Shown piece by piece: positions 3,274 through 42,854 of a DNA stretch of 64,000 bases. Each line of letters opens with the position of its first letter. Position 1 is the first letter of the stretch. The translations under genes and the position numbers were made by a program. Source of the DNA: Spartobacteria bacterium (GTDB lineage: Bacteria; Verrucomicrobiota; Verrucomicrobiia; Chthoniobacterales; UBA10450); NCBI GenBank assembly GCA_040002925.1, contig JBDUDM010000001.1:1794-65793 (forward strand), written 5' to 3'. Below the pieces are notes generated by a model. That model worked only from the letters and a program-made list of their open reading frames with translations, was not told the origin of the DNA and did no database searches.

Positions 3274-3847
3274 CGCCGAGAAGCTGCGCGCCGATCTCGG
3301 AGAAGTGACAATCGGTCGCGAGATCGTCGTCCTGGACGAAACCACTTCGACTAACGACGAGATTTTCAAAATAGCGACGCCGGATACGCGCGAAGGCATC
3401 GTCGTCATTGCCGAACATCAAACCGCCGGCCGCGGCCAGCGCGGAAAATCCTGGGAATCTGCGGCGCGCAAAGGACTTTGGTTCTCGATCCTCCTTCGTC
3501 CGAAGATCGACATGAAGAATGCGGCGCGGCTGACCGAGTGGGCCGCAAACATTGTCGCAACGACAATCGGAGAGGCCGAGGTGAAACCGCCTAACGACGT
3601 TTACATCAGCGGACGAAAAGTCGCCGGTGTGCTGGTGGAAATGCGCGCGCAGCCGAACGGTCCACACCTCGGTATTCTCGGCATCGGCGTGAACGTGAAT
3701 CAAACCGCGGAAGATTTCTCGGACGCGGTGAAGGAACGCGCGGCGTCGCTCGCGATGTTGCGCGGCCGTCCGCAAGATCGACATCTACTCGCGGTCGCCT
3801 TGCTCCGAAATCTCGATCGGACCTACGCCGAGCTTTTCCATTTGTAG
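3260..3847 (+). CDS. birA: Biotin--[acetyl-CoA-carboxylase] ligase, catalytic core only (no HTH)
   Basis: 195 aa with the EHQTAGRGQRGKSWES biotin-protein-ligase signature and KWPNDV-like PNDVYISGRKVAGVL. Overlaps the nadC end by 14 nt. Its TAG stop lies inside the terminal TGTAGG of the downstream repeat element. Confidence 0.75.
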   Translation: MSELSAEKLRADLGEVTIGREIVVLDETTSTNDEIFKIATPDTREGIVVIAEHQTAGRGQRGKSWESAARKGLWFSILLRPKIDMKNAARLTEWAANIVATTIGEAEVKPPNDVYISGRKVAGVLVEMRAQPNGPHLGILGIGVNVNQTAEDFSDAVKERAASLAMLRGRPQDRHLLAVALLRNLDRTYAELFHL

Positions 3848-3900
3848 GGCGTCTGTGCCAGACGCCATCCTAAAAGTGCCGTCTATAGAGACGGCCTACA
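3843..3900. repeat. TGTAGG...CCTACA double-hairpin palindromic element, copy E1
   Basis: The termini TTGTAGG / CCTACAA pair with each other. Inner hairpins are GGCGTCTG-tgc-CAGACGCC and GCCGTCT-atag-AGACGGC. The element exactly fills the gap between the convergent birA and trpD genes. Confidence 0.75.
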
Positions 3901-27618: not shown

Positions 27619-27678
27619 AGTGGCGCAACCGTCCCGGTTGCGATCTTTCCCGAACGCAAGCCAGAGGCTCGCGCCACT
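27619..27678. other. Structured inverted repeat in a convergent gap; possible bidirectional terminator or element remnant
   Basis: Outer stem AGTGGCGC (27619-26) / GCGCCACT (27671-78). Inner hairpin GCAACCG-tcc-CGGTTGC. No clean T run. Confidence 0.35.
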
Positions 27679-30600
27679 AATGAAAGTCGTGCGACTCGCT
27701 GCCGACGAGTTGTTCGTGCGCGAGAGGCCGGATATCGCGCGTCTTAATCAACACGACGTTTTCAGAATTCTGCACATCGCCTTCGATTAGCAAAAATGAT
27801 TCTTCGGTAATCATCAGCCGAAACCGCTCGAATACGTCAGGATCGACAATCGCATTCGCGACCCCGGTCTCATCTTCCAGGCTGATAAAGACAAAACCTT
27901 TCGCCGTGCCGGGACGCTGACGACAAATGACATTGCCGGCGATTTGCACAGACGCGCCGGGCTGCGCCTGCGCGAGATCGATCGCTCGCCAAACATTCGG
28001 CAAACGTTCGCGTAACAACTTCATTGGATGCGGTCCGATCGTCAGGTTCATCGTTTCGTAATCCGCCTGCACCCGCTCGGAGATGTTCATGCGCTTCAAC
28101 GGAGATGAAGATGTCGATCTTGCGAGGAGATCGTCGTGCATCGCTTCTTCCACGCGCCACATGGCGGCGCGGCGATGATCGGTGAAGCAGTTGAGCGCAC
28201 CGAGTTCGGCAAGCGCTCGCAGTTCTTCCTTCGAAACGGCGACGCGCCGTTTGAAATCATCGAGCGAATCGAATTGTCGATCTTGCCGTTGCCGCACGAG
28301 TTCATCCGCATGTTCGTGGCGAAGTCCGTTTACCACACAAAATCCCAGTCGCACCGTTTCATCGGAAACAACCGCACAGTTCCATGTCGATCTTTGCACA
28401 CAGACCGGTTGCGTTTTCACGCCGTGGCGGCTGGCGTCTTTCACGATGGTCGCCGGCGTATAAAAACCCATCGGCTGATTGTTGAGCAGGCTGGCGTAAA
28501 ACTCGGACGCGCGATGCACTTTCAAATACGCGCTGCCGTAAGCGAGGATGGCAAAACTGATCGCGTGCGATTCGGGAAATCCGTAAAGCGCGAACGAGGT
28601 GATCGATTGCAGGATTTTGTCGATCACGGCCGGCGCTACGTTTTTGCGCTGCATGGCCGCGCGCAGTTTTACACTCACCTTGTTCATGCGGACTTCGGAT
28701 CGATGAAAGCTGAGCGCGCGCCGCAATTCTTCCGCTTCATCGCCGGAGAAATCCGCCATCACCATCGCAATCTTTAACATCTGTTCCTGAAATAGCGGAA
28801 CACCGAGCGTGCGGCCGAGAATCGGTTTCAATCGCGGATCGAAATACGTCACCGGTTCGCGGCCGGCGCGCCGCGCGAGATAAGGATGCACCATGTCGCC
28901 CTGGATCGGCCCGGGGCGAATGATCGCGACTTCGATGACGACATCGTAAAAACATTTCGGTTTCATCCGCGGCAGCGTGGCCATTTGTGCGCGGCTCTCG
29001 ATTTGAAAAACGCCGATGGTGTCGGCCTTCTGCATGATCTCGAAAGTGGCCGCGTCGTCTTTCGGAATGTGAGCAAGATCGAGAGGTCGCCCGCGTTCGC
29101 GGCAAAGCTCGAGCGCGTCCTGCATCACCGACATCATGCCCAGGCCTAACAAATCCACTTTGACGATGCCGAGATCTTCGCAATCGTCCTTGTCCCATTG
29201 CGCGACGACGCGACCGGGCATCGACGCATTTTCGAGCGGCACGAAGGAGCTGAGTTTGTCTTGGCAAATAATCATGCCGCCGGAGTGCTGGCCGAGATGG
29301 CGCGGCAATCCGTACATCGCCTGATAAAGATCGATGAACGCCGGCATGCGCGGGTGTTCCTTTGGCAAACCGGCCTGCTCGATTTGCGATTGCAGGTCGA
29401 GCGTGTGCGGAAAATCTCCGCTCGCAAACAAGTGCGAGAACCGATCAAGAATGCTCGGCGAGAAATTCAGCGCTTTGCCGATCTCGCGCGCGGCGCTGCG
29501 GCCACGATACGTGATGACGTTCGCGGTCATGGCCGCGCCGTGTTTGCCGTAGCGCCGATAAATTTCCTGGATCACGCTTTCGCGACGATCGCCGCTCGGA
29601 AGATCGAGATCGATATCGGGCCAGCCTTTGCGGCTCTCGCTCAGGAAACGCTCGAAGACGAGATGATTGCTGACCGGATCGACCGGGGTGATGCCGAGGC
29701 AATAACAGACCGCGCTATTGGCCGCGCTGCCGCGACCCTGGACCATGACATCGTGTTCGCGGCAAAAGTTAACGATATCCCAGACGATCAAAAAATATCC
29801 CGGGAATCCGAGTTTGCTGATGAGCGCGAGTTCTTCCTCGAGCTGACGTTTCACCGCGGCGCTGACCGCGGTGTAACGTTGTTGCGCGCCGAACCAGACG
29901 ATGGTGCGGAGAAAAGAATCCATGCTGTGACCGCTCGGCACGGGGAAGGATGGAAATTCGTAGCCTATGTTTTCGAGCGAAAAAGTAAGGCGCTCGGCCA
30001 GGCGCGAAGTGTTCTCGATCGCTTCGGGCAAATCGCGAAAGAGCTCTCGCATTTCGCGGTCGCTCTTCAAATGACGCTCGGCATTTTGCGTGAGCAATTT
30101 GCCGGCGGCATCGAGATGGGTGTGCTCGCGGATGCAGGTGAAAACATCAGCGACCTGGCGACCGGACGGTTTGGCGTATTGCACGCCATTGGTCGCTAAG
30201 ATCGACAATCGATAATGCGCGGCAAGATCGACAAGTGGCCGGTTAATGCGTTCTTTGCCGCGGAGAAAGTGCCGCTGGATTTCAACGAACACATTTTCGC
30301 AGCCGAACGCATCGATGAGAAACTGCGCGCGATTTTCTGAACTGTAGGCGACGCTGTTAGCGTCGCGAGGGAAGCAAACTGCTTCCCCTACAAGCGCGAC
30401 CAAGCCATCCGCGAACTCCGCGAGCTCGCTCCATTGCACCGAGCATTTTCCTTTTTCGCTGCGCAGATGCGCTTGCGTGAGCAGCCCGCATAAATTTTTG
30501 TAGCCGGCGCGATTCTCGACCAGCACCGGAAGAATCGCGCCGTCTTCCATGGTCAACTCGGCGCCAGTGATGGGCCGAACATTTTGTTCGCGCGCGGCCA

Positions 30601-30754
30601 TCGCGAAACGTTGCGAGCCGTAAACACCGTCGCGATCCAGCAATGCCATTGCCGGCATCTCGAGCTCGGCGGCGGTCTCGGCTAGTTGTTCAGGAAAGGA
30701 ACCACCGCGCAGAAAACTGAATGCGCTGCCGGCATGCAATTCAACGTAAGACAT
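27677..30754 (-). CDS. dnaE2: Error-prone DNA polymerase (Pol III alpha-like, ImuC)
   Basis: About 1025 aa from MSYVELHAGSAFSFLRGGS (PHP domain). Pol III alpha core and an OB fold are at the C-terminus. It lies directly downstream of the imuB 3' fragment. Confidence 0.9.
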   Translation of the reverse strand: MSYVELHAGSAFSFLRGGSFPEQLAETAAELEMPAMALLDRDGVYGSQRFAMAAREQNVRPITGAELTMEDGAILPVLVENRAGYKNLCGLLTQAHLRSEKGKCSVQWSELAEFADGLVALVGEAVCFPRDANSVAYSSENRAQFLIDAFGCENVFVEIQRHFLRGKERINRPLVDLAAHYRLSILATNGVQYAKPSGRQVADVFTCIREHTHLDAAGKLLTQNAERHLKSDREMRELFRDLPEAIENTSRLAERLTFSLENIGYEFPSFPVPSGHSMDSFLRTIVWFGAQQRYTAVSAAVKRQLEEELALISKLGFPGYFLIVWDIVNFCREHDVMVQGRGSAANSAVCYCLGITPVDPVSNHLVFERFLSESRKGWPDIDLDLPSGDRRESVIQEIYRRYGKHGAAMTANVITYRGRSAAREIGKALNFSPSILDRFSHLFASGDFPHTLDLQSQIEQAGLPKEHPRMPAFIDLYQAMYGLPRHLGQHSGGMIICQDKLSSFVPLENASMPGRVVAQWDKDDCEDLGIVKVDLLGLGMMSVMQDALELCRERGRPLDLAHIPKDDAATFEIMQKADTIGVFQIESRAQMATLPRMKPKCFYDVVIEVAIIRPGPIQGDMVHPYLARRAGREPVTYFDPRLKPILGRTLGVPLFQEQMLKIAMVMADFSGDEAEELRRALSFHRSEVRMNKVSVKLRAAMQRKNVAPAVIDKILQSITSFALYGFPESHAISFAILAYGSAYLKVHRASEFYASLLNNQPMGFYTPATIVKDASRHGVKTQPVCVQRSTWNCAVVSDETVRLGFCVVNGLRHEHADELVRQRQDRQFDSLDDFKRRVAVSKEELRALAELGALNCFTDHRRAAMWRVEEAMHDDLLARSTSSSPLKRMNISERVQADYETMNLTIGPHPMKLLRERLPNVWRAIDLAQAQPGASVQIAGNVICRQRPGTAKGFVFISLEDETGVANAIVDPDVFERFRLMITEESFLLIEGDVQNSENVVLIKTRDIRPLAHEQLVGSESHDFH
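30343..30392. repeat. TGTAGG...CCTACA double-hairpin element, copy E3, inside the dnaE2 CDS and in frame
   Basis: TGTAGG-CGACGC-tgtta-GCGTCG-cga-GGGAAGC-aaac-TGCTTCCC-CTACA. It is translated on the minus strand as VGEAVCFPRDANSVAY. It is closely similar to the reverse complement of copy E4. Confidence 0.7.
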
Positions 30755-30773
30755 GGCGCAACTCGCGAAATCA

Positions 30774-31733
30774 TCAGTCGTAAACACCGTCGATTTGCCA
30801 GCCGGACTCATCGGCATGACAACGGACGAGCTCGCCCGGATTCAATTCCAAATCCCATTCCGCCCGCGACCAAGTTTGCACATCCCACCAATTTCCCGAT
30901 GCCAGATACGGTCCGTTTTTTTTCGAAATGGCTCCGCTCACTTTTGCGCTGCGGAGATGGAGCGGTTTATTTTGTTCTAGCAAAACGGAGGCGTTGGTTG
31001 CTGGCCGGAAGCGACGTAAGGCAGCACCAGATTTCGGTTCGGCCGGAGTAGATGGCGGACTAAAATTCCACGCGAACGGTTCAAGATGAAAAGCATCGGG
31101 ACGATGCGTTTCTTCTACAACGGGCGTGCCGACTCGATTGCTTCCGAGTAAGGCGACGAGGCGCGCGAGCGTTTCGGAAAGTTGGGCGGGATTTCGCAGT
31201 GCCGTTTCGAAAAGGCCGAACTGTTGCGGCGCCGGTTTGGTTGGCTTCGCTTCCAACGCGATGGCGATAATGGGATGTTCCGATTGGAAATTCTCCAAGT
31301 GCGTGTGCAGCATGCGAAAGAGAAGATCGACATCGTTCGTCGGCTGCGGAATGGAGAAGCAGCGTTCGTATTGCTCTCGATTATCGAAGGTGATGCGAAG
31401 GGTGAGTTCCTGCGCGACGAGGTAAATCGCCTGTAAACGAATCGCGATTTGTTCCAAGAATCTTCGTAGCATGAAGAGCAACGGATCGATCGTTTCGACT
31501 TCGTGTTCGAACTCAAAGCTCTCGGCAAATGATTCCGGCGGCTCGATCAGTTTGAGAAGCCGCATTGATTTGCCCTGAGCGCGTTCCCAAAGCCGGACCG
31601 CTTCCGGGCCGAGCCTCGCGCTAATGTCTTTACGATCTAGCGCAGCGAAATCGCCGACGGTATGCACGCCCCATTTGTGCAAGATCGACATGATGCGCCC
31701 GACTTCCCCCGCTGTCTTCCTGGGGTCAGGCAT
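30774..31733 (-). CDS. imuB: ImuB (Y-family polymerase-like) C-terminal two-thirds; one half of a split gene
   Basis: 319 aa starting within the HhH/little-finger region (ILHKWGVHTVGDFAALD...). It has a beta-clamp-type motif QQFGLF. The ATG overlaps the stop of the upstream repeat-protein gene (TAATG). The N-terminal third is encoded at 41350-41910 on the other strand. Confidence 0.75.
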   Translation of the reverse strand: MPDPRKTAGEVGRIMSILHKWGVHTVGDFAALDRKDISARLGPEAVRLWERAQGKSMRLLKLIEPPESFAESFEFEHEVETIDPLLFMLRRFLEQIAIRLQAIYLVAQELTLRITFDNREQYERCFSIPQPTNDVDLLFRMLHTHLENFQSEHPIIAIALEAKPTKPAPQQFGLFETALRNPAQLSETLARLVALLGSNRVGTPVVEETHRPDAFHLEPFAWNFSPPSTPAEPKSGAALRRFRPATNASVLLEQNKPLHLRSAKVSGAISKKNGPYLASGNWWDVQTWSRAEWDLELNPGELVRCHADESGWQIDGVYD

Positions 31734-33676
31734 TACCGTTGTTGCGAGAGCAAACGTGTTTTTATTTCGGCGGGCAGCGTAGCGTTATTGATCCACGAGG
31801 CGGCGCTGCCGGGATTGACCTTGAGCCAATTCGTTAGGATGGATTCGACCTGGCTGTTGCGCATTCCTTCATTCCCGATCGACGACGCCCATTGCGCGGC
31901 CGCTTCCGGATCGGACACCGCGATGCGACGAGTGAAAACCGCGATACCGGCGTCGCGCGTAGTCCCTTGGTGCAAACTGCCTAACCAAGTCGCGGCCGCC
32001 GATGGATCGCTTTCGGCCCAGCGGTTCACCACATTTTCCACCGCGCGTTGCCGACCGACACCTTCCGGAAAGGACGTGGCCCACTTGCTCGCTTCGCGCG
32101 GATCTTGCGACGCCCATTGCCACCCGATGGTGCCGGCAGCATTCGCTTGCGCGTCTGACGAAGAAATTTTCGAAATAAGGCGCGCGGCTTCGCGGACATT
32201 ATTTTCTGCGACGCTCGCGACAATTCCGGGAAGCATGGCGTCGCGCGCGGCGGTGTCGGAAAGATTTTCCGCCCAGGTGAGCGCGGCTGTTGGATCAGAC
32301 TGAGCCCAACGTCGCGCAACGTGATCCAGTAAATTGCCGCCCGCATTCGAGCTGCGCTGGCGCAATGCGAAATCGGCCGCGGCCCGTGGATCCGCATCGC
32401 TCCATTGCGCCACGATGTTGCTCAGGGCGTTTTGGCGGGCCTGCCCCGGCGGGAGTTTTTGCGCCCAAGCCGCGGCGCTTTGCACATCGCTCCCAGCCAA
32501 TTGCGTAGCGATCGCGGTGATCGCTTCTTCCTGCGTTTTTCCGGGAGGCAAAGTGGAAATATAATCTGCCGCCGCAGCCGGCTCAGATTGAACCCATGCG
32601 ACGAGGACACCACGCACCGCCTGGGATTGCCCTTCACCTATCGGTAATTGTTGCGCCCAACTCAGTGCTGCGCGCACATCGCTCTGGGCCCATTGCCGGG
32701 CAATATTACCTAACGATTGCTCTCGCACGGTGCCGCCCGGAAGCGTCACCACCAGCGCCGCCGCTTTCGCGGGGTCCTTACCCGCCCAGCTCGTTAGGAT
32801 ATTTTGCAACGTGTTATTGCGGCCGCGTCCAGGCGGCAGGTTGTTCGCCCAGGCGAATGCCGCTTCCGGATCTTGATTTGCCCATGTCGATCCAACGGCC
32901 TGGCAAGCGGCGTCGTGGTTCGCATCCGGCGGCAGGCGCGTGACCATGGCGGCAGCGGCGGCAGGATCATTCGCTGCCCAATTATTGAAGATGGGCCAAT
33001 AGAGATTCTGGCGCGCACGACTCGCGGGCAGAGCCTGCACCAACGTGAGCGCGCGTTGCGGATCATTTTCGGCAATCGCGGTAACGACGGTTTGCATCGC
33101 CTGATCGTGCGCCGGTCCCGGCGGAAGTTGCTGCACCCAGGCGGCGGCAGCGTTGGCATCGCGACTGGCCCAACCTTTCGCCGCGCTCGTCATCGCCGAG
33201 GTGCGAGCTGGGCCCGGCGGTTGTTTTTCCGCATAAGCGATCGCGGCCGTGGCATCGAACTCGGCCCAACGGTTCACGATCGCCGCAACGAGGACATTTT
33301 TTTCCTGGGAACCCGGCAAACTTTCGGCGAACGCGACGACGTCGTTCACATTTTTTTCGTCCAGCGCGTCGACCAGTTTAGTGAATTCGGTTTTAGCGCG
33401 GCGAGTGTTGCGCTGACCGAGCGCCGCTTTGATCGAGCCGATAATTTTTTCGGGCGGCGCGTGCGGATCGACCGAAGCATCGATTATCGATCTTGCGCGT
33501 TCTGGTTCTGGCGCAGCAACAATCTTTGCCGGAACAGGCGGGGTGGATGGCAGCATCGCGACCGGTTTAGGTGGCGCGACGGCCGGTTTCGAAAATGGAT
33601 TTGGGTAATGTCCGACAAGGAGCCCAGCGCAAAACAGCAGAACCGCGCTGCCGATCGTAATGGTGGCGCGATTCAT
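31733..33676 (-). CDS. Membrane-anchored alpha-solenoid repeat protein (about 13 repeats of about 38 aa)
   Basis: 647 aa with an N-terminal TM segment. The repeat unit is of the form DPxAAAxWxxxLPPGxxRxxAxxxIxxxWA. AGGAG lies 5 nt before the ATG and a LexA box 29-42 nt upstream. Confidence 0.7.
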   Translation of the reverse strand: MNRATITIGSAVLLFCAGLLVGHYPNPFSKPAVAPPKPVAMLPSTPPVPAKIVAAPEPERARSIIDASVDPHAPPEKIIGSIKAALGQRNTRRAKTEFTKLVDALDEKNVNDVVAFAESLPGSQEKNVLVAAIVNRWAEFDATAAIAYAEKQPPGPARTSAMTSAAKGWASRDANAAAAWVQQLPPGPAHDQAMQTVVTAIAENDPQRALTLVQALPASRARQNLYWPIFNNWAANDPAAAAAMVTRLPPDANHDAACQAVGSTWANQDPEAAFAWANNLPPGRGRNNTLQNILTSWAGKDPAKAAALVVTLPGGTVREQSLGNIARQWAQSDVRAALSWAQQLPIGEGQSQAVRGVLVAWVQSEPAAAADYISTLPPGKTQEEAITAIATQLAGSDVQSAAAWAQKLPPGQARQNALSNIVAQWSDADPRAAADFALRQRSSNAGGNLLDHVARRWAQSDPTAALTWAENLSDTAARDAMLPGIVASVAENNVREAARLISKISSSDAQANAAGTIGWQWASQDPREASKWATSFPEGVGRQRAVENVVNRWAESDPSAAATWLGSLHQGTTRDAGIAVFTRRIAVSDPEAAAQWASSIGNEGMRNSQVESILTNWLKVNPGSAASWINNATLPAEIKTRLLSQQR

Positions 33677-33704
33677 AATCTCCTCTTACGGCAAATCGTT
33701 GATA

Positions 33705-33718
33705 TGTTCAAATGAACT
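33705..33718 (-). promoter_or_regulatory. Putative LexA box upstream of the repeat-protein / imuB-3' / dnaE2 unit
   Basis: TGTTCAAATGAACT on the plus strand (AGTTCATTTGAACA in the gene orientation). Matches TGTTC-N4-GAACA at 13 of 14 positions and is nearly identical to the box in front of lexA. Confidence 0.6.
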
Positions 33719-35703
33719 TATAAGATTGTGACCGGACATTTTGGTAATGCCTGCATAAATGCGCGGCCATACGGCTTCGTCACAATGCGATTATCCAGGA
33801 TCACCGCGATCCCATGATCGCTCTTTGTCCGAATCAAGCGTCCGATTCCCTGACGCAATTTCAGGATCGCTTCCGGCAGCGAGTATTCCGTGAAAGGATC
33901 GCCGCCGCGTTCCTGCACTAATTCGAGCTTCGCTTCTATCAGCGGATGATCGGGCACCGCGAAGGGCAAACGGGTGATGATGACGTTTGAAAGTGCTTCG
34001 CCCGGCACATCCACGCCCATCCAAAAACTGTCGGTGCCAAAAAGGACGCTGCGCGGAGTCGCCTTAAATTGTTCAAGTAATTTGCCGCGCGGCATCCCTG
34101 CACCCTGGACGAACAGGTTCAGATTCTTGTCGATGAAACTCTGCTGCAATCGCGCCACCATTTGCTGCATCCCGCGATAACTGGTGAAAAGAATAAAGGC
34201 GCGCCCTTCCGTTTCCTCGACGAAATGCGCAATCCATTTCGCCAGCGCTTCTTCGTAACCGGCCTCGCGCGGGTCGGGCATTTTTTGGACGATGAAAAGT
34301 TTCATCTGGTTTTGAAAATCGAACGGACTCCCCAGTTGCAACGGTTCCGCGTCATTCGCGCCGATGCGATTCCGGAAATACGCCATGTCGGCGCGGCCGA
34401 CCGAAAGGGTGGCGCTCGTCATCACGCATGAGCAGGAATCGCGAAACAACATGCGACGAAGCACTGGCGCGATGTCGATCGGCGATGCGTTCAGCGAAAG
34501 AAACTGACCGGCTTTCCCGGTGCGTTCGACCCAGTAGACGTGCGGCTCCTGCGCGCTTTGCTCGAGGAATACTTTAATGCCATCGCGCGCATCGCGAATT
34601 CTTCCGCCGATGTCCTGCAATTCCGCCCGCAGAAATTCATCCTCGGTTTTACGGACGACCTCGGCCACGCGTGCTTGCAGCGCAATCAATCGCCCGGTGA
34701 TGGTGTCCGGCACGAAGTCCGGAGCGCGGACGCGGAACTCGCGGCCTTTGGTGAAGTTGCAATGCGTCTCCAGTTTCTCGAAAAAGATGTCGACTTCATC
34801 GGCAAGGGATGCGGCCAGCGTCACGCCAGCGGCTTCGCGCGTGACCGTGAAAAGGCCTTTGCGGCTCCGCGCGTTGTAGAGCCGTTGGATTGTCGATCTT
34901 AGCCCGTATTGCGAAACGCCGAGGCCGACCTGACGGGAAGCCACCTGCTCGATCGTGTGCGCCTCGTCGAAGATGATGAAGTCGTTAGGGAACAAAAACC
35001 CGCTCTCGCGTGCGGCCTGCTCCTCTGGATCACCGAACAACTTGAAGAGCAAAGTGTGATTGATGACGAGGACATCGGCGACGAGCAAACGTTTGCGCGC
35101 CTGCTGATAAAAACACCCGTGATGTTGTCCGCACGTTTTCGTGGTGCAGACGTGCGCCTCGCTACAGACCTGCGTCCAAACTTTCGAGTCCGGTTCGAAA
35201 TTCAAATCGCTCAGCGACCCGTCCTGCGTCTTCGCGGCCCATTCCGCCAGTTGCTGCAATTCCTCCTTCTCCGACGTGGTGAAGAGATCGTTCGCCTGTT
35301 GCAGCGCGCGCTCGAGCCGGCGCGGACAAAGATAGTTTTGCCGACCCTTCACTAAGGCCGCCTCGAACTCGACCGGCAATGTCTTCTTTAAAATCGGGAT
35401 GTCTTTATAGAGAAGCTGCTCTTGCAGATTGATCGTGTGCGTCGAAATGATCGCTTTCTTTTTCTGCTCGAGCGCGAACAGAATCGACGGCACCAGATAG
35501 GCGATCGATTTGCCTACGCCCGTCCCGGCCTCGACGACAAGATGTCGATCTTCCTCCAGCGTGCGCGCCACCGCCACCGCCATCTCCTGTTGCTCGGGAC
35601 GAAACTCGAAATTCTTCGCCTTCGACAGCAAACCGGTTTCAGAAAAGATCGCGCGGACACGCTCGACCAGCTCAGTTCCGATAGAGTCCTTGAGCGCAAT
35701 CAT
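33718..35703 (-). CDS. dinG: DinG/Rad3-family ATP-dependent DNA helicase
   Basis: 661 aa; Walker A AGTGVGKS, DEAH box FDEAH, Fe-S Cys cluster (CPRR...C...C..C), and C-terminal helicase motifs. Confidence 0.85.
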   Translation of the reverse strand: MIALKDSIGTELVERVRAIFSETGLLSKAKNFEFRPEQQEMAVAVARTLEEDRHLVVEAGTGVGKSIAYLVPSILFALEQKKKAIISTHTINLQEQLLYKDIPILKKTLPVEFEAALVKGRQNYLCPRRLERALQQANDLFTTSEKEELQQLAEWAAKTQDGSLSDLNFEPDSKVWTQVCSEAHVCTTKTCGQHHGCFYQQARKRLLVADVLVINHTLLFKLFGDPEEQAARESGFLFPNDFIIFDEAHTIEQVASRQVGLGVSQYGLRSTIQRLYNARSRKGLFTVTREAAGVTLAASLADEVDIFFEKLETHCNFTKGREFRVRAPDFVPDTITGRLIALQARVAEVVRKTEDEFLRAELQDIGGRIRDARDGIKVFLEQSAQEPHVYWVERTGKAGQFLSLNASPIDIAPVLRRMLFRDSCSCVMTSATLSVGRADMAYFRNRIGANDAEPLQLGSPFDFQNQMKLFIVQKMPDPREAGYEEALAKWIAHFVEETEGRAFILFTSYRGMQQMVARLQQSFIDKNLNLFVQGAGMPRGKLLEQFKATPRSVLFGTDSFWMGVDVPGEALSNVIITRLPFAVPDHPLIEAKLELVQERGGDPFTEYSLPEAILKLRQGIGRLIRTKSDHGIAVILDNRIVTKPYGRAFMQALPKCPVTIL

Positions 35704-35778
35704 TCAATCACTCGCGCAGCGTGCGAAATCACGCCGTTACGTTAAACTGATCCTGCCGAAGCCTCATCCCTAATTTCC

Positions 35779-36918
35779 GTGAAACTGCTCGATCGCTACG
35801 TCACCCGCAATTTTCTGCAGGCCTACATTTACTGCATCGCGGGGTTCATCTCCATCTGGCTCGTCTTCGATGTGAGCGACAACATCTCCACCTTCATCGA
35901 TCAGCACCTCGGCGTGCGCCGCGTCGCGCTTTACTATTTAACGCAGGTTCCGCAAATCGTGGTCATTCTCCTGCCGGTTTCGTTGCTGCTCGCGTTGCTA
36001 TTTTGTCTCGGACGGATGTCACGCGCGAACGAAGTCGTGTCGATGTTGACCGCCGGAGTCAGCGTACCGCGCGTCTTGCTTCCACTCATCATCATCGGCG
36101 GATTGACTGCGATCGGGACGCTGGCGCTTAACTACGAACTCGCGCCGCATGCCGATCTCGCGAAAAAAAATGTGTTATCGGCCGAGCGCGTGCGACGCGC
36201 CTCGCAAGTCGAGGGACAAATTTTTCGTAATCGAAGCGACGCCCGCACTTGGTTCATCCAAAGTTTTCGCATCCATCAAAATGCTTTCAATAACGTGCAG
36301 GTGCTGCAACAGGACGCGCAGGATAACATCGTCATGAGTTACATGGCGAAACGCGCAGTGTTCCGGCCCGAAACAAAAGCGTGGGAACTCGAATCGGCCA
36401 AGATCGTCCACTACGACAACGCGGGAAATATTCTCCGCGAAGAGTTTCAGCCGACGATGTCGATCTTGCACTGGAGCGAAACGCCTTACCGCTTGAGCAG
36501 CGCGAATGTTCGCGCCGAGCAACTCGGCGTCCCGGAGCTGCGTGAGTATTTGCATTTTAATTCCGACTTCCCTCCTACTCTGCTCGCGCCATTCAAAACC
36601 CATCTGCAATATCGACTCGCCCTGCCTTGGACATGTCTCGTCGTCGTTTTCATCGCGGCGCCGCTCGGCATCGGCTTTTCGCGCCGCGGCGTCCTCTCCA
36701 GCGTCGCCGCATCCATCGTTCTCGTGTTCTCCATGAATTTTCTCACCCACTTGTTTCTCGCGCTTGGCGAGGGTTATCGCATTCCGGCGTGGGCCGCCGC
36801 GTGGACGCCGAACGCAATCTTCGCCGTCATCGGCTTGTATCTGCTTTATCTCCGGGCGACCAATCGCGAAGGCTTCGGCTTTCGCCTGCTGCCGACGCGT
36901 CGTATAGTTGCGCGATGA
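35779..36918 (+). CDS. LptF/LptG-family LPS export permease
   Basis: 379 aa with a GTG start. MKLLDRYVTRNFLQAYIYCIAGFISIW is typical of the YjgP/YjgQ family. It has 6 TM segments and a periplasmic beta-jellyroll loop. Confidence 0.8.
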   Translation: MKLLDRYVTRNFLQAYIYCIAGFISIWLVFDVSDNISTFIDQHLGVRRVALYYLTQVPQIVVILLPVSLLLALLFCLGRMSRANEVVSMLTAGVSVPRVLLPLIIIGGLTAIGTLALNYELAPHADLAKKNVLSAERVRRASQVEGQIFRNRSDARTWFIQSFRIHQNAFNNVQVLQQDAQDNIVMSYMAKRAVFRPETKAWELESAKIVHYDNAGNILREEFQPTMSILHWSETPYRLSSANVRAEQLGVPELREYLHFNSDFPPTLLAPFKTHLQYRLALPWTCLVVVFIAAPLGIGFSRRGVLSSVAASIVLVFSMNFLTHLFLALGEGYRIPAWAAAWTPNAIFAVIGLYLLYLRATNREGFGFRLLPTRRIVAR

Positions 36919-37424
36919 GTCTTCTGGCTAACGAATGGGCGATCAAACATCGCTCGGATGTCTGCGCGGCCACGCAACGGCCTTTTGCGGAGGGAGAATT
37001 TTTCTACACCCTGCTCTTTCACGAAGCCGAAGGTTTTCGCAGGGAAGATTTGAGCGAAGCAGCCTGGCAAAGCCGTAACGAAAACATTCGGCCGTTTTCA
37101 TTTTGGAAAAGCCGCTACGAGCCCACGCCGCCCGCTCCGCCTGAAACTTTGGCCAAAGAAAATGCCGAAGAATTATTTCGTCGCCTGGTGGCATCCGAAA
37201 ACGCGCCCGCGAATGCATGCTACGTCCTGGCCGCCATGCTTGAGCGCAAACGCGTGCTGAAACAAATTAAGACCGAGAAGACCGATGACGGCCGCGTTTT
37301 GGTTTACGAGCATCGGGAAAACGGCGACGTCTTCATCGTGCGCGATCCCGGCCTGCGCCTGGATGAATTGCAGAACGTGCAGAGCGAGGTCGCAAATCTG
37401 CTCCAAGCCGGAATCCCCCGCTAA
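36915..37424 (+). CDS. Hypothetical protein
   Basis: 169 aa. The ATG overlaps the upstream stop (ATGA). No family recognised. The ORF-track start at 36627 is an over-extension. Confidence 0.55.
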   Translation: MSLLANEWAIKHRSDVCAATQRPFAEGEFFYTLLFHEAEGFRREDLSEAAWQSRNENIRPFSFWKSRYEPTPPAPPETLAKENAEELFRRLVASENAPANACYVLAAMLERKRVLKQIKTEKTDDGRVLVYEHRENGDVFIVRDPGLRLDELQNVQSEVANLLQAGIPR

Positions 37425-37431
37425 GATCGAC

Positions 37432-38517
37432 ATGGACAAGATCGACAATGGAACCGCGGGGAAGCGAGCGACATGGACGGGGAAGCGCGAGAGGGTTGAT
37501 GAGGCGGGAGCCGAATCAATCAATCACTCGTTGCCTTGGTTTTCGAACGGCTTTCCGCTCTATCTCGCGCCGATGGCAGGAGTGTCGGACAAAATCTTTC
37601 GGCAAATCTGCAAACGCTACGGCGCCGATGTTCTAACGACTGAATTCGTTTCCTCCGAAGGAATTTTTCGACGCAACGATCGCACGAGCGAATACCTCGA
37701 CTTCGATGAAATCGAGCGGCCCCTCGGCGTGCAACTTTTCGGCGGCAATGCCGAACACATGGCCGAAGCCGCGCGCCAGGTCGTCGACTGGGTCGTGCCG
37801 GACTTTGTCGATCTTAACTTCGGTTGTCCGGTCAACAAAGTTGTCGCGAAGAACGGCGGCTCCGCGTTGCTGAAAGATTGTCCGACACTCGCGAGCGTCG
37901 CCGGCGCAGTTGTTCGCGCGGTCGCGCCGTTGCCGGTCACCGCGAAAATTCGCATTGGTTGGGATGCCGATTCCATCAACGCCGTCCGGGTCGCACATAT
38001 CCTTGTGGATCAAGGCATCGCCGCCATCACCGTCCACGGCCGTACTCGCGCGCAAGGTTATTCCGGCGAAGCGGATTGGAATGTCATCGGCGAAGTGGCC
38101 GCAGCGGTTTCGATTCCAGTGATCGGAAACGGCGATCTTTTCACCCCGATGGATGTCGCGAAGCGTCGGCGCGAAACCGGAATCGCTGCGGCGATGATTG
38201 GCCGCGCCGCGATGAGCGCGCCGTGGATCTTCCAACAGATCAAAGAATTTCTAGCCACAAATACGATTGTCGATCCACCGAACGCGCAGCAAAAGTGGGA
38301 CGTGATCTTGGAACATTGCCGCTTAGCGGTCGACGAATGGGGCGAGGAAGAGCCGGCCATTCGCTCGATGCGTGCGCGATTGATGGCTTACTCGAAAGGA
38401 TTTCCGGCGAGCAAATTATTGCGCGAGAAATTCCAGCACGTCTCCACCTTGCTTGAGCTTGAAGAAATCGCGCATGCGCATTTGCAGATGGCGTTCGAAC
38501 CCGCACTGGCCACTTGA
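37432..38517 (+). CDS. dusB: tRNA-dihydrouridine synthase
   Basis: LYLAPMAGVSDKIFRQICKRYGADVLTTEFVSSEG, DLNFGCPVNKV, TVHGRTR. Two copies of the 12-mer sit at the start codon. Confidence 0.85.
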   Translation: MDKIDNGTAGKRATWTGKRERVDEAGAESINHSLPWFSNGFPLYLAPMAGVSDKIFRQICKRYGADVLTTEFVSSEGIFRRNDRTSEYLDFDEIERPLGVQLFGGNAEHMAEAARQVVDWVVPDFVDLNFGCPVNKVVAKNGGSALLKDCPTLASVAGAVVRAVAPLPVTAKIRIGWDADSINAVRVAHILVDQGIAAITVHGRTRAQGYSGEADWNVIGEVAAAVSIPVIGNGDLFTPMDVAKRRRETGIAAAMIGRAAMSAPWIFQQIKEFLATNTIVDPPNAQQKWDVILEHCRLAVDEWGEEEPAIRSMRARLMAYSKGFPASKLLREKFQHVSTLLELEEIAHAHLQMAFEPALAT

Positions 38518-38520
38518 TCG

Positions 38521-38889
38521 ATGGAAACCGTAGCCACGCCTAACTACAAGATCGGTAACGAGCGTCTAGTTAAAGTGACCGAGGCCGCCGCCGGAAAATT
38601 AATTTCGCTGCTGACAAAACAGGGGCGGCCGCAAGGCGCGCTCCGGGTCGCGGTCATCGGCGGCGGTTGCTCCGGTTTGCAATACAAAATGGACCTCGTC
38701 GACGGCCCCGCGAATCGCGACATCATGGTCCCGACCGCGAACGTCCGTGTCGTGGTCGATCCAAAAAGCGCGCTCTTCGTTAGCGGCTCCGTCCTCGATT
38801 ACAGCGACGACCTGCAAAAAGGCGGATTCAAAGTGACGAATCCGAACGCAGTCGCCCATTGCTCGTGTGGCGAAAGCTTCGCGGCATGA
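38521..38889 (+). CDS. erpA: Iron-sulfur cluster insertion protein (HesB/IscA/ErpA family)
   Basis: 122 aa; [20 protein letters not shown] and C-terminal CSCGESF. Confidence 0.9.
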
Positions 38890-38914
38890 CCGACTTTCTG
38901 GGCAAATAGTCGGC

Positions 38915-39518
38915 ATGAAGATCGCGTTGAAGCCTGAGAATGTCGCGCGGCTGGTGTTCTTCATCCGCGGTGAGAAGGTTATGCTCGATTCCGACCTCGC
39001 CATGCTTTATGGCGTTGAAGCGCGTAGCCTAAACCAAGCGGTCGCAAGGAATCACAAGCGCTTTCCGGCTGATTTCATGTTTCAACTTTCCGAGAAAGAA
39101 TACGAAGACATCCGGTCACAATCTGTGACCACATCCGGAGGGAAAAAGCTTAAGTCATCACAAACTGTGATCTCAAAACCACCAACTTCCGGCGATGCAT
39201 CGCGTTTGAGATCACAAATTGTGACCTCAAAGGGCGGCCGCGGAGGTCGTCGCTATCGCCCATACGCCTTCACCGAACAAGGCGTGGCCATGCTATCGAG
39301 CGTTCTGCGCAGCTCGCGCGCGGTGAGGTAAACATCGCGATCATGCGGACTTTTGTGCAACTCCGGCGATTAATGGACGGCAACCAGGAGCTTGCTCGAA
39401 AAATCAATGCACTTGAAAATAAATACGACGAACAATTCTCTGTCGTCTTTGCCGCAATAAAACAGCTCATCACGCCCCCACCGCGGACAAAAAAAAAGAT
39501 CGGATTCCATTCCGAGTG
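38915..39518 (+). pseudogene. ORF6N-domain (KilA-N-like) protein gene, frameshifted near 39325
   Basis: N-terminal part: [42 protein letters not shown]...[21 protein letters not shown], then a stop at 39329-39331. The conserved continuation [16 protein letters not shown]...LENKYDEQFSVVFAAIKQL is in another frame and ends at 39518. Confidence 0.7.
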
Positions 39519-39980: not shown

Positions 39981-39982
39981 GA

Positions 39983-39996
39983 TGTTCATTTGAACT
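39983..39996 (+). promoter_or_regulatory. Putative LexA box upstream of lexA
   Basis: TGTTCATTTGAACT lies 35 nt before the lexA ATG. Matches TGTTC-N4-GAACA at 13 of 14 positions. Confidence 0.7.
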
Positions 39997-40030
39997 TGCG
40001 CTGGTTTCGTTAGCCTGCGATGCTGATGTC

Positions 40031-40657: not shown

Positions 40658-40671
40658 TGTTCACTTGAACA
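40658..40671 (+). promoter_or_regulatory. Putative LexA box upstream of imuA
   Basis: The perfect palindrome TGTTCACTTGAACA lies immediately after the lexA stop and 29 nt before the imuA GTG. Confidence 0.75.
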
Positions 40672-41350: not shown

Positions 41351-41910
41351 TGTTCGCCACCATTTATCTGCCGAACTTTTATCTGCAGGCCGCATTGCGC
41401 CATCAATCGGAATCGCAGGACAAACCCGCGGCGTTGATCGAGGAACAGGAAAAGAAACCGGTCATCATCCAATTGAACGAAGCCGCGGAAGCGGTCGGCG
41501 TGCGCAAAGGAATGACGCCGAGCCAGGCGTTAGCGCGATATTTGCACGTCGTGATTAAAGCGCGGGCGGCGATGAACGAGCAATCGATGCAGGAGATGCT
41601 GCTGCAATCCGCCTTTACGCTTAGTCCGTATGTGGAAGCGACCGCGCCCGGAGTCGCCACTGTCCGGTTTACTGCGTGGCATCGGCATCTTGCCGATGAT
41701 TCATGCGCTGGAAGCGCATGCCACAAAGTTCTGCGCGTGATCGAGCAATTAAGCGAATGCGAGATCAAAGCGCAGGCCGCAATCGCGCGGACGCCGGACA
41801 CGAGTTTTCTCGCGGCCCATTTGGCGCGACCGGTGTTGGAGGTGAACGACGCGAAAGATTTTCTCGGCCCGTTGCCGATCGAAACGCTCGCGCTTACGCC
41901 ATCTCTGTAG
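41350..41910 (+). CDS. imuB: ImuB N-terminal third (Y-family palm/fingers); other half of the split gene
   Basis: MFATIYLPNFYLQAALR... The start overlaps the imuA stop (TGATG). It ends at ...PLPIETLALTPSL, with a TAG supplied by the terminal CTGTAGG of repeat copy E4. Confidence 0.75.
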   Translation: MFATIYLPNFYLQAALRHQSESQDKPAALIEEQEKKPVIIQLNEAAEAVGVRKGMTPSQALARYLHVVIKARAAMNEQSMQEMLLQSAFTLSPYVEATAPGVATVRFTAWHRHLADDSCAGSACHKVLRVIEQLSECEIKAQAAIARTPDTSFLAAHLARPVLEVNDAKDFLGPLPIETLALTPSL

Positions 41911-41965
41911 GGGAAGCTGCCAGCTTCCCGTAAATTCGATGGGACGCTAACAGGGTCCCCTACAG
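41905..41965. repeat. TGTAGG...CCTACA double-hairpin element, copy E4
   Basis: CTGTAGG-GGAAGCTG-c-CAGCTTCC-cgtaaattcgat-GGGAC-gctaacagg-GTCCC-CTACAG. Its reverse complement aligns with copy E3 (30343-30392). Confidence 0.75.
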
Positions 41966-42646: not shown

Positions 42647-42723
42647 GCCCCGATGGAATCAAATTGCGGGCGCCGTGACAATGGAGATGTCGATCTAACG
42701 AAGGTCAGCGCGATGGACGGACT

Positions 42724-42846
42724 CTGGGGAGCGCACGCGCCCTCGCGTGCTGTTGCGGCGCCCTCGCCGCAACGAACTTTGTCTTGCGAAAAGATGGCGA
42801 TCGCGAGGGCGCAATCGCCAGCACGCGAGGCGCGTGCGCTCCCCAG
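42724..42846. repeat. Long structured palindromic element, copy E5 (123 bp)
   Basis: A 28-bp outer stem CTGGGGAGCGCACGCGCC(C)TCGCGTGCTG / CAGCACGCGAGGCGCGTGCGCTCCCCAG. Inner hairpins are TTGCGGCG-ccct-CGCCGCAA and GGCGAT...ATCGCC. It shares strings with E2 (GCACGCG, GCGGCGCCCTC). Confidence 0.7.
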
Positions 42847-42854
42847 AAAGAGGT

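What the first reader, a model, noticed from the sequence alone, without database searches (positions are those of the whole stretch)
30343..30392. A double-hairpin palindromic element sits in frame inside dnaE2 (RPE-like behaviour)
The 50-nt segment TGTAGG-CGACGC-tgtta-GCGTCG-cga-GGGAAGC-aaac-TGCTTCCC-CTACA has the same termini and two-hairpin layout as the intergenic copies E1 (3843-3900) and E4 (41905-41965). Its sequence aligns well with the reverse complement of E4, sharing CTGTAGG, CTGTTAGCGTC and GGGAAGC...GCTTCCCCTACA. It nevertheless lies inside the dnaE2 reading frame, where it is translated as VGEAVCFPRDANSVAY without a stop. Palindromic elements inserted in frame into proteins are established for Rickettsia RPEs and are otherwise uncommon. 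E3 and E4 are also inverted copies bracketing an 11.5-kb segment that holds both imuB halves, which makes them a potential substrate for further rearrangement.
Basis: partly seen in the sequence, partly recalled or inferred. Interest (0 to 1): 0.65.

Follow-up and report, generated by a model that had tools for sequence, protein, structure and literature searches.

The report
Mobile REP hairpin pair inside dnaE2
A 50-base pair of mobile hairpin repeats (a GTAG-type REP doublet) sits in frame in a dispensable loop of the error-prone DNA polymerase DnaE2 of a soil verrucomicrobium; the kind of event is already documented, but this loop turns out to be a busy landing site for many such repeats.

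Summary
Window 30343-30392 is a TGTAGG...CCTACA double hairpin lying in frame in dnaE2 (minus strand), read as VGEAVCFPRDANSVAY.

It is a head-out doublet of two GTAG-tagged REP units. The family is abundant in soil Chthoniobacterales/Udaeobacter genomes. In a related genome the same units flank a RAYT (Y1 transposase) gene.

Close orthologues at 89% identity lack it, so it is an insertion. The site, between GLVAL and RAQFLIDAFG in the PHP domain, is a hot-spot. In 84 orthologous loci the segment is 15-183 nt, always a multiple of three, and mostly built from nested palindromes of several repeat families. REP units there are 92-100% identical, while the flanking codons are only 72-82% identical.

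The same REP family also sits in frame in FtsK, E2 acyltransferase, Mfd, MiaA and an ABC transporter.

Intragenic GTAG REPs, including ones in dnaE2 and in Verrucomicrobia, were described by Di Nocera et al. 2013. This is therefore a new member of a known kind; the hot-spot behaviour is the new part.

The suggested E3/E4 rearrangement has no support: gene order and the split imuB are conserved in relatives that lack the element.

The parts
30343..30392 (.). REP doublet: two GTAG-tagged REP units in inverted, GTAG-outward orientation, in frame in dnaE2. It encodes VGEAVCFPRDANSVAY on the minus strand.
30343..30366 (+). REP unit of the 'GACGC' type, TGTAGGCGACGCTGTTAGCGTCGC. Against the family consensus GGGACGC..GCGTCCC it carries a compensated stem change (G>C paired with C>G).
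30369..30392 (-). REP unit of the 'GGAAGC' type, TGTAGGGGAAGCAGTTTGCTTCCC. This is the commonest stem type of the family (124 of 162 units).
27677..30754 (-). dnaE2 (error-prone DNA polymerase, ImuC), 1025 aa from MSYVEL. The polymerase aspartates are present (PDIDLD, KVDLLGLG). The longest ORF extends to 30817.
30302..30406 (-). Insertion hot-spot 1: the PHP-domain segment between the codons for GLVAL (30392-30406) and RAQFLIDAFG (30302-30331). It is 15-183 nt long in 84 orthologous loci.
28097..28138 (-). Insertion hot-spot 2: the linker HDDLL..SPL between the HhH and OB domains. It is unoccupied in the window and holds inserts of 0 to about 54 aa, of the same repeat families, in orthologues.
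41905..41965 (.). E4: an intergenic REP doublet of the same two unit types, in the opposite order. Its GTAG supplies the TAG stop (41908-41910) of the imuB N-half ORF.
3843..3900 (.). E1: a REP doublet of a sister family (TGTAGGGCGTCTG...), lying between convergent ORFs. The same family occupies the dnaE2 hot-spot in L183, L194 and L200.
42723..42847 (.). A 125-nt nested palindrome: outer stem GGGGAGCGCACGCG.. with two inner hairpins. It is intergenic here; the same family is the commonest in-frame occupant of the dnaE2 hot-spots in other genomes.

Best explanation
The segment is a non-autonomous mobile element: a doublet of two GTAG-tagged repetitive palindromes (REP units) arranged GTAG-outward, like a REPIN or BIME.

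Such elements are thought to move as single-stranded hairpins through a RAYT, an HUH/Y1 tyrosine transposase encoded elsewhere in the genome. That step is inferred here.

This copy landed in dnaE2 directly after the PHP-domain strand GLVAL. In this clade that loop has lost the native segment of about 17 residues and is dispensable. The copy adds a whole number of codons and has no stop in the gene's frame. The ribosome therefore reads through it, and DnaE2 gains 16 REP-encoded residues while the rest of the enzyme stays intact.

The loop is permissive, and palindromes attract further insertions and hairpin-mediated deletions. The same few codons have consequently become a turnover hot-spot for several repeat families across the clade. 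Selection on DnaE2 removes every variant that breaks the frame.
For: Shown:
- REP anatomy. A pyrimidine precedes TGTAGG in 157 of 162 units, followed by a 7-8 bp GC stem and a 3-5 nt loop.
- Dispersed copies. More than 119 genome stretches, mostly Chthoniobacterales, Udaeobacter or Chthoniobacter. They occur as single units, as one-hairpin palindromes and as doublets with variable spacers. One copy elsewhere is 96% identical over 50 nt (L009).
- No target-site duplication is visible at the flanks printed.
- A RAYT. The 162-aa ORF at L042 5193-5681 matches Pfam Y1_Tnp (E 7.5e-7, above the cut-off). It has HAH and YVQDNPV motifs and is flanked by inverted copies of this REP unit at 5215 and 5688-5711.
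- An empty site. L001 (P0002, 89% identical) lacks the element, in otherwise syntenic DNA.
- The hot-spot. In 84 loci the segment is 15-183 nt, with 31 distinct lengths, all multiples of 3 and none with a stop.
- The inserts are strong palindromes, many of them nested. They average -0.48 kcal/mol/nt against -0.29 for the flanks, and 54 of 77 beat every same-length flank window.
- The insert families have copies elsewhere in these genomes.
- 210 of the 248 internal insertion columns of the DnaE2 alignment fall at two sites.
- The polymerase active-site motifs are invariant.
- The same REP family lies in frame in Pfam-verified FtsK, E2 acyltransferase (twice), Mfd, an HMGL-like protein, an ABC transporter and MiaA.
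- The loop is permissive. Canonical DnaE2 representatives have 41-42 aa here, and the clade's empty allele has 25. Other lineages carry inserts that bring the segment to as much as 178 aa (alignment to 4jom and 2hpi).
- Precedent: PMC3733652.
Against: - No RAYT lies in the 64-kb window, and the rest of this genome could not be searched.
- Movement was not observed. Every REP-A copy at this site has the same junctions (T|TGTAGG...CCTACA|GTTC in six of the seven DNA copies, GAAC in L120) and the same orientation. This fits one old insertion as well as repeated site-specific ones.
- A purely neutral passenger should decay. Yet the REP units are 92-100% identical between loci whose flanks are 72-82% identical, with third positions at 44-65%. 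Something keeps them intact: selection, gene conversion or recent re-insertion.
- The all-in-frame result is partly biased, because the loci were picked by protein match.
- The AlphaFold model was too poor (mean pLDDT 48.9) to confirm surface exposure.
- Translation through the element has no direct RNA or peptide evidence.
Confidence: 0.8

Rival explanations
1. The hairpins are kept because they do something in cis. As structures in the dnaE2 mRNA or DNA they could throttle translation or stability of the mutagenic polymerase. The site would then be selected to hold 'any strong palindrome' rather than merely tolerating one. This is compatible with a mobile origin.
For: - REP units at the site are 92-100% identical while neighbouring third codon positions are 44-65% identical. 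The spacers between units vary freely.
- The window copy carries a compensated stem change (G>C with C>G) that preserves pairing.
- Most of the 77 loci whose segment is 27 nt or longer hold a strong hairpin there, whatever the family.
- Di Nocera et al. noted that replication and repair genes are over-represented among REP-tagged genes.
Against: - Five loci have alleles of 15-18 nt with no hairpin: L001, L122, L123, L163, L125.
- REP units are just as conserved at intergenic sites across these genomes, so the conservation may reflect the family's own dynamics.
- There are no expression data.
- The same family sits in unrelated genes.
Confidence: 0.12
2. The element is not translated. The ribosome hops over it, as over the 50-nt gap of phage T4 gene 60 or the 'byp' GC-hairpin inserts of Magnusiomyces mitochondria.
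For: The element is 50 nt long, strongly folded and sits inside a coding sequence. The parallel with bypass elements rests on my own knowledge of those systems.
Against: Bypassed inserts need not keep the frame and usually carry stops. Here all 84 loci, and all 31 distinct insert lengths, are multiples of three and stop-free. No stop follows a take-off codon. The REP-encoded peptide is conserved as a peptide in annotated orthologues.
Confidence: 0.02
3. The segment is native DnaE2 sequence that happens to be palindromic, and the resemblance to E1 and E4 is coincidental. There was no insertion.
For: By length it fills the position of a native segment present in canonical DnaE.
Against: - Close orthologues lack it.
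- It shows no similarity to the canonical SGCxxG... helix.
- Near-identical 24-nt units and a 96% identical 50-nt copy occur at unrelated loci in many genomes.
- Chance expectation for the pattern in the window is 0.00.
Confidence: 0.03
4. dnaE2 is a decaying pseudogene, or the element is a mis-assembly.
For: A repeat inside a gene of a metagenome-derived sequence is a classic place for assembly errors.
Against: - Contigs from four independent runs carry it, with at most one differing base across the stretch.
- The ORF is intact over 1025 codons.
- 120 orthologues at 79-100% identity keep the catalytic motifs invariant.
Confidence: 0.02

Closest known systems
GTAG-tagged REPs and REP dimers, including intragenic ones (Di Nocera, De Gregorio & Rocco 2013, BMC Genomics 14:522, PMC3733652)
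   Same: - GTAG tag abutting a short GC-rich stem-loop.
- Units mostly paired in inverted orientation.
- Association with a RAYT flanked by the units.
- The TAG of the tag supplies stop codons to neighbouring ORFs (seen here at E4).
- Copies lie inside genes and encode about 7-30 residues.
- The host genes listed there include dnaE2 and E2 acyltransferases of the verrucomicrobium Opitutus terrae.
   Different: - The sequence family differs (GGGGAAGC / GGGACGC stems), and so does the host order (Chthoniobacterales/Udaeobacter).
- The site in DnaE2 differs. Here it is the PHP loop at residues 122-137. In O. terrae it is residues 934-971 of 1116, which may correspond to the second hot-spot here; that was not tested.
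- That paper does not describe one codon position occupied by many families across about 200 orthologues.
REPIN-RAYT systems (Bertels & Rainey 2011, PMC3116915; Nunvar et al. 2010, PMC2817692)
   Same: Two inverted REPs form a hairpin doublet. They are non-autonomous, and the cognate single-copy RAYT is flanked by the same REPs. The RAYT lies at an orthologous position in two genomes (L042 and L083, next to the same neighbouring genes). REP sequence is conserved across diverged hosts.
   Different: - The two units of this doublet have different stems, so it folds as two hairpins on a short outer stem rather than as one long hairpin.
- The spacer is only 2-4 nt in this copy.
- The location is intragenic.
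Rickettsia palindromic elements (RPEs; Ogata et al. 2000, cited in PMC3733652)
   Same: The behaviour matches: palindromic repeats inserted in frame into functional genes and read through as extra peptide segments.
   Different: There is no sequence relationship. RPE-4 and RPE-6 are CGTC-tagged according to PMC3733652, and RPE-1 is about 100-150 nt. No RAYT association has been reported for CGTC repeats. The host phylum and lifestyle also differ.
Translational bypass inserts (T4 gene 60; Magnusiomyces mitochondrial byps)
   Same: Short, structured, mobile-looking inserts inside coding sequences; T4 gene 60 has a 50-nt gap (own knowledge).
   Different: Those inserts break the frame or carry stops and are skipped. 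These always keep the frame and are stop-free.

Membership tests
GTAG-tagged REP / REPIN | Conserved GTAG tetranucleotide at one end of a short GC-rich imperfect palindrome | tested here: met
   Both units begin TGTAGG and continue with a 7-8 bp stem and a 3-5 nt loop. In 162 family units the base before TGTAGG is C (121) or T (36).
GTAG-tagged REP / REPIN | Many dispersed copies in the genome | tested here: met
   There are 5 units in the 64-kb window against 0.25 expected. Copy number in this particular genome could not be counted.
GTAG-tagged REP / REPIN | Units paired in inverted orientation (doublet, REPIN or BIME) | tested here: met
   The window has doublets at 30343-30392 and 41905-41965, and dozens more occur in other genomes with spacers of 2 to about 60 nt.
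GTAG-tagged REP / REPIN | A RAYT (Y1/HUH transposase) gene flanked by the same REP units | tested here: met
   In a related genome, L042 ORF 5193-5681 matches PF01797 (E 7.5e-7, 29.7 bits against a cut-off of 23) and has REP units at 5215(+) and 5688-5711(-). L083 holds a frameshifted homologue in the same neighbourhood.
GTAG-tagged REP / REPIN | A cognate RAYT present in this same genome | not testable with these tools
   None lies in the 64-kb window (tblastn). The rest of the genome is not available.
GTAG-tagged REP / REPIN | Extragenic location | tested here: not met
   This copy lies inside dnaE2. Intragenic exceptions are documented for the family (PMC3733652), so this does not exclude membership.
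GTAG-tagged REP / REPIN | Cleavage and mobilisation by the RAYT at GTAG | not testable with these tools
   This needs biochemistry. The inference rests on the E. coli work cited in PMC3733652.
Rickettsia palindromic elements (RPE) | Sequence membership in RPE-1 to RPE-8, or the CGTC tag | tested here: not met
   The termini are GTAG/CTAC, not CGTC. Nearly all family members are found in Verrucomicrobiota.
Rickettsia palindromic elements (RPE) | In-frame insertion into an otherwise intact gene | tested here: met
MITE of a DDE transposon | Terminal inverted repeats bounded by a target-site duplication | tested here: not met
   No consistent direct repeat flanks the doublets printed, nor the dnaE2 copy.
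Translational bypass element | The insert breaks the frame or carries a stop, with matching take-off and landing codons | tested here: not met
   84 of 84 loci are in frame and stop-free, and 31 distinct lengths are all multiples of 3.
DnaE2 / ImuC error-prone polymerase (the host gene) | Pol III alpha architecture with catalytic aspartates, encoded next to an imuB-like gene | tested here: met
   Pfam finds PHP, DNA_pol3_alpha, finger, HHH_6 and OB. PDIDLD and KVDLLGLG are invariant. An IMS_C gene lies directly upstream. Sources name the orthologues 'error-prone DNA polymerase'.

The most novel reading that the evidence does not exclude
The PHP-loop codons of dnaE2, and a second linker near residue 877, would be an actively maintained landing pad. 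Under this reading RAYT-mobilised palindromes of at least eight families are inserted there repeatedly in one orientation, and their hairpins are kept intact by selection or gene conversion. The reason would be that they tune expression, or switch the state, of the SOS mutasome in globally abundant soil Udaeobacter-like bacteria. That would make dnaE2 a host gene whose regulation has been handed to resident REP elements, not just a tolerant bystander.
Probability: 0.15. Interest if true: 0.7.

Novelty: new member of a known kind. Interest (0 to 1): 0.42.

Why it matters
The finding extends intragenic REPs to one of the most abundant uncultured soil lineages, Chthoniobacterales / Ca. Udaeobacter. 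It also provides an unusually rich natural experiment. About 200 orthologues of one enzyme differ almost only at two loops, where different palindromic repeat families have been inserted, nested and trimmed, always in frame.

This is useful in three ways:
- as a marker of REP/RAYT activity and turnover;
- as a map of permissive sites in DnaE2;
- as a warning for annotation and alignment, because the repeat-encoded peptides (VGEAVCFP, CQPVxxGSLP, ACAPQ and others) are not homologous protein sequence.

If the hairpins proved to be maintained for a cis effect on the mutasome, that would link mobile repeats to control of induced mutagenesis.

Tried and rejected
- AlphaFold2 of the full protein with 45 close orthologues gave mean pLDDT 48.9. 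The insert came out as low-confidence coil, so the model cannot be used to show surface exposure. No fold search was run on it.
- I tried to recover the Sphingomonas wittichii DnaE2 (Swit_1119, REP cluster at residues 166-246 according to PMC3733652) by searching its REP-encoded peptide. No candidates were found. Whether that cluster sits at the same PHP-loop site remains untested.
- No RNA runs hold the sequence.
- Rfam at gathering thresholds finds only three tRNAs in the window. None of the palindromes matches a curated RNA family.
- The RAYT search used the E. coli YafM sequence recalled from memory, as a lead only. The L042 hit was then verified with Pfam. The L083 homologue did not reach Pfam significance and looks frameshifted.
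- No target-site duplication is apparent.
- The NJ tree of 540 flanking nt scatters the insert types. It is too short and unbootstrapped to separate repeated insertion from loss, replacement or recombination.
- 35 of 133 REP sites lie in long open frames, but most of those frames look spurious (Arg/Pro-rich reading of GC-rich DNA). Besides three dnaE2 copies, I count as intragenic only the eight Pfam-confirmed ORFs in seven gene families; one of these, TrmD, is from a Saccharibacteria bin.
Full report
**1. Observation.**
Window 30343-30392 reads TGTAGGCGACGCTGTTAGCGTCGCGAGGGAAGCAAACTGCTTCCCCTACA. The pattern TGTAGG-N35-60-CCTACA occurs three times in the window, at 3843, 30343 and 41906, against 0.00 expected. 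The 50 nt fold as a short outer stem (TGTAGG/CCTACA) carrying two 8-bp hairpins. As RNA the energy is -29.7 and -30.0 kcal/mol on the two strands, z about -4.5. As DNA it is -19.6 kcal/mol, z -5.5. Contigs from four independent soil and root metagenome runs cover the stretch without gaps and with at most one differing base. The sequence is real.

**2. Host gene.**
The element lies in the minus-strand ORF 27677-30817. The likely start is MSYVEL at 30754, 19 nt after the stop of the upstream gene, giving 1025 aa. The Pfam architecture is PHP, DNA_pol3_alpha, finger, HHH_6 and OB. The 120 best database relatives are 79-100% identical. Where a source names them, they are 'error-prone DNA polymerase' from Chthoniobacterales or Verrucomicrobiota MAGs. 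The polymerase aspartate motifs PDIDLD and KVDLLGLG are invariant among 45 aligned orthologues. The gene therefore looks functional. The element is translated VGEAVCFPRDANSVAY, residues 122-137.

**3. It is an insertion.**
P0002 (89% identical; DNA in L001) reads GLVVL-CGNSN-RAQFLIDAFG. The window reads GLVAL-VGEAVCFPRDANSVAYSSEN-RAQFLIDAFG, a net gain of 15 codons. L001 is otherwise syntenic with the window over at least 17 kb.

**4. What the element is.**
Each half is TGTAGG followed by a GC-rich stem-loop. The two halves face each other with the GTAG ends outward. By record title, 98 of them are Verrucomicrobiota: Chthoniobacterales, Ca. Udaeobacter, Chthoniobacter or 'Spartobacteria'.
- The copies occur as single units, as one-hairpin palindromes (TGTAGGGGAAGCTGnCAGCTTCCCCTACA) and as doublets with spacers of 2 to about 60 nt. 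No target-site duplication is apparent at their flanks.
- Among 162 units, the stems are GGAAGC/GCTTCC in 124 and GGACGC/GCGTCC in 28. The base before TGTAGG is a pyrimidine in 157.
- L009 holds a 96% identical 50-nt copy at an unrelated locus.
- In L042, a 162-aa ORF matches Pfam Y1_Tnp (PF01797, E 7.5e-7, above the curated cut-off). It carries HAH and YVQDNPV motifs. It is flanked by two inverted copies of this very unit, which is the REPtron arrangement. L083 has a frameshifted homologue beside the same neighbouring gene.

These are the defining features of GTAG-tagged REPs and REPINs mobilised by RAYTs (PMC3733652, PMC3116915, PMC2817692). The window itself encodes no RAYT.
E4 (41905-41965) is a doublet of the same two unit types in the opposite order. 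E1 (3843-3900) is a doublet of a sister family.

**5. The site is a hot-spot.**
All length variation among the 120 orthologues at the N-terminal end falls between GLVAL and RAQFLIDAFG. I fetched DNA for 80 further orthologous loci and delimited the segment with flanking protein anchors.
- In 84 loci the segment is 15-183 nt. There are 31 distinct lengths, every one a multiple of three, and none has a stop.
- Most segments of 27 nt or more are strong palindromes, many of them nested, reaching -112 kcal/mol. The mean is -0.48 kcal/mol/nt against -0.29 for same-length windows of the flanking codons. 54 of 77 beat every flank window.
- At least eight unrelated sequence families occur:
  - this REP doublet, sometimes with an extra small hairpin (AGTCCGAGCCGGAC, 'SPSRTG') nested between its units;
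  - the E1-type doublet (L183, L194, L200);
  - a large family with outer arms GGGGAGCGC or GGGTAGCGC and inner hairpins ('VSRVGFGV...RDACATQ');
  - a 'CQPV...SGSLP...RLAACAPQ' family;
  - 'NRPYLHAGE';
  - 'KLDCFKQSS';
  - 'PSPQDGEK';
  - a GGAGGGACGACC... family.
- Short alleles such as GGGTAGCGCGTGCGCTACCC look like trimmed remains of the large family.
- Several of these families have copies elsewhere. Examples are the window's intergenic 42723-42847, the imuB C-half gene (L001 9672-9733), and a second place in dnaE2 (L002 2673-2794).
- L163 and L183 have identical flanks and differ by a 75-nt block containing an E1-type doublet.
- In the 45-sequence alignment, 210 of 248 internal insertion columns lie at two places: residues 123-136, and after residue 877 (the HhH-OB linker). 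The second site carries the same families in other orthologues and is empty in the window.

**6. Turnover and conservation.**
A neighbour-joining tree of 540 flanking nt scatters the insert types. The REP doublet appears in at least four places. The tree is short and unbootstrapped. All seven DNA copies of the doublet share the same left junction (T|TGTAGG) and the same orientation. Six of them share the same right junction (CCTACA|GTTC); L120 reads CCTACA|GAAC. One origin with later replacement, recombination between alleles, and repeated site- and strand-specific insertion all remain possible.
The 48 nt of the two units are 92-100% identical between loci (mean 95%). The flanks of the same loci are 72-82% identical, with third codon positions at 44-65%. 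The spacer between the units varies freely. The window copy, L002 and L133 share a compensated stem change (GGGACGC..GCGTCCC to GCGACGC..GCGTCGC), which is rare in the family. So the units are kept intact by something: selection on the hairpin, gene conversion from other copies, or recent re-insertion.

**7. Other genes.**
The same REP family sits in frame in Pfam-verified genes:
- FtsK (inside the motor domain);
- two E2 acyltransferases (the lipoyl to E3-binding linker; L058 has two copies);
- Mfd (just before the TRCF domain);
- an HMGL-like protein;
- an ABC exporter (between the TMD and the NBD);
- MiaA.

It also recurs in dnaE2 of L120. A TrmD hit comes from a Saccharibacteria bin and may belong to a different GTAG family. 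Most other long ORFs spanning REP copies look spurious.

**8. Structural context.**
HMMER alignment to solved Pol III alpha structures places the insert right after the PHP strand. It corresponds to [35 protein letters not shown] in E. coli (4jom) and LIALSG-CLGAEIPQFILQDRLDL-AEARL in Taq (2hpi). Among 150 diverse DnaE2 representatives, the stretch from GLxAL to FGxxN is 41-42 aa in about half. It is 25 aa in the clade's empty allele, 40 aa in the window, and as much as 178 aa in scattered other lineages. The clade has therefore lost the native segment of about 17 residues, and REP-derived sequence fills its place. The loop is permissive in general. The N-terminal PHP metal-ligand motif is degenerate (ELHAGS...LRG against HLHVHS...IDG). 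An inactive PHP site would explain the tolerance; this is inference. The AlphaFold model was too poor to add anything.

**9. Mechanism and rivals.**
The best-supported reading is as follows. A RAYT-dependent REP doublet inserted into a dispensable loop (mobilisation is inferred). It is read through by the ribosome, as shown by frame and stop conservation. It persists because it does no harm, and the site accumulates further palindromes and deletions.
- A cis-regulatory role for the hairpins is not excluded. It would explain the conservation of the units, but hairpin-free alleles exist.
- Translational bypass is contradicted by the perfect frame conservation.
- In-situ origin is contradicted by the orthologues and the dispersed copies.
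- Artefact or pseudogene is contradicted by the independent assemblies and the intact ORF.

**10. Known precedent.**
Di Nocera, De Gregorio and Rocco (2013, PMC3733652) defined GTAG and CGTC REP super-families. They reported REPs inside genes and found most intragenic GTAG REPs in the verrucomicrobium Opitutus terrae. They listed dnaE2 (Oter_4053, residues 934-971; Swit_1119, residues 166-246) and E2 acyltransferases among the tagged genes. They also noted that GTAG termini supply TAG stops. Full-text searches found nothing on such repeats in Udaeobacter or Chthoniobacterales, nor on a multi-family hot-spot in dnaE2.

**11. The E3/E4 idea.**
E3 and E4 are inverted relative to each other and do bracket both imuB halves. 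However, L001 has the same gene order without E3. The imuB C-half gene is directly upstream of dnaE2 in all 81 related loci, and the N-half is never found there. The split is therefore old and unrelated to these two copies. Recombination between them would also destroy dnaE2.

**12. Verdict.**
The element is a new member, in a new family and host order, of a known kind: the intragenic GTAG REP doublet. The added value is the hot-spot: two loops of one enzyme that collect, nest and trim palindromic repeats of many families, always in frame, with the REP units far better conserved than the surrounding codons.

Limits of this analysis:
- the loci were chosen by protein match, which biases the sample towards intact frames;
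- there are no RNA or peptide data;
- no complete genome of this lineage was available.

Noticed in passing
window 41329-41910 (+) and 30774-31733 (-): imuB appears split. A 193-aa IMS (N-terminal) ORF follows ORFs that, by synteny with L001, are lexA and an imuA-like gene. A 319-aa IMS_C ORF sits directly upstream of dnaE2, about 10 kb away on the other strand. Inverting 31734-41910 would restore a canonical lexA-imuA-imuB-dnaE2 operon. The split arrangement is conserved in L001 and in all 81 related loci.
   Followed up: partly
window 41905-41910: The TAG stop of the imuB N-half ORF (41908-41910) is supplied by the GTAG of REP doublet E4. PMC3733652 describes this habit for GTAG REPs.
   Followed up: yes
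window 42723-42847: A 125-nt nested palindrome with an outer 19-bp perfect stem and two inner hairpins (DNA fold -63 kcal/mol, z -10.7). It lies between a membrane-protein-like ORF and the TPR gene. The same family is the commonest in-frame occupant of the dnaE2 hot-spots elsewhere. No Rfam match.
   Followed up: partly
window 28097-28138 (dnaE2 residues 873-886): A second insertion hot-spot of DnaE2, in the HhH-OB linker. It is empty here. Orthologues carry inserts of 0 to about 54 aa from the same repeat families, plus a 'CHPERSEGP...RSARDD' family and a 'VAGIGDPGSS..TGITDPGY' family. The latter resembles the O. terrae GTAG-17 peptides.
   Followed up: partly
L001 9672-9733; also L163 1640-1704, L154 1545-1609, L135 746-810: A palindromic repeat of about 62-65 nt (GGAGGGACGACC...GGACGCGACGGAGCGCGTCCCTCC) lies inside the imuB C-half gene of relatives, about 300-450 nt upstream of dnaE2. 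The same repeat occupies the dnaE2 PHP hot-spot in L173.
   Followed up: no
L042 5193-5681 and L083 1259-1811: The RAYT gene sits between the same two neighbouring genes (a 522-aa ORF and a 566-aa AAA-ATPase-like ORF) in two different MAGs. It is intact in L042 and frameshifted in L083. This fits vertical inheritance of a single-copy RAYT.
   Followed up: partly
window 27619-27678: An imperfect 27-nt inverted repeat fills the gap between the convergent ends of the 6-phosphogluconate dehydrogenase gene and dnaE2. It is probably a bidirectional terminator.
   Followed up: no
window 6887-7010: A short ORF directly after a tRNA gene reads MFVMAWVYILRGAKRHYIGTTDDLQRRLMEHEHGSNHTTHR. By eye it looks like a GIY-YIG nuclease-type small protein. 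It is followed at 7140-7166 by a small hairpin (GCCCCGAAAGCTTTCGGGG) that also occurs in some dnaE2 inserts.
   Followed up: no
L015, L022, L071, L099, L100, L104, L115 (one Zoogloeaceae MAG): A betaproteobacterial MAG carries many copies of a very similar GTAG REP unit (TGTAGGGGACGCAGGTTGCGTCCC). This shows how alike GTAG REP stems can be across phyla.
   Followed up: no
window 30100-30148: In three of the four metagenome runs, many short higher-depth contigs pile up on and end in this dnaE2 stretch. It probably marks a segment shared by co-occurring strains, where the assembly graph branches.
   Followed up: no
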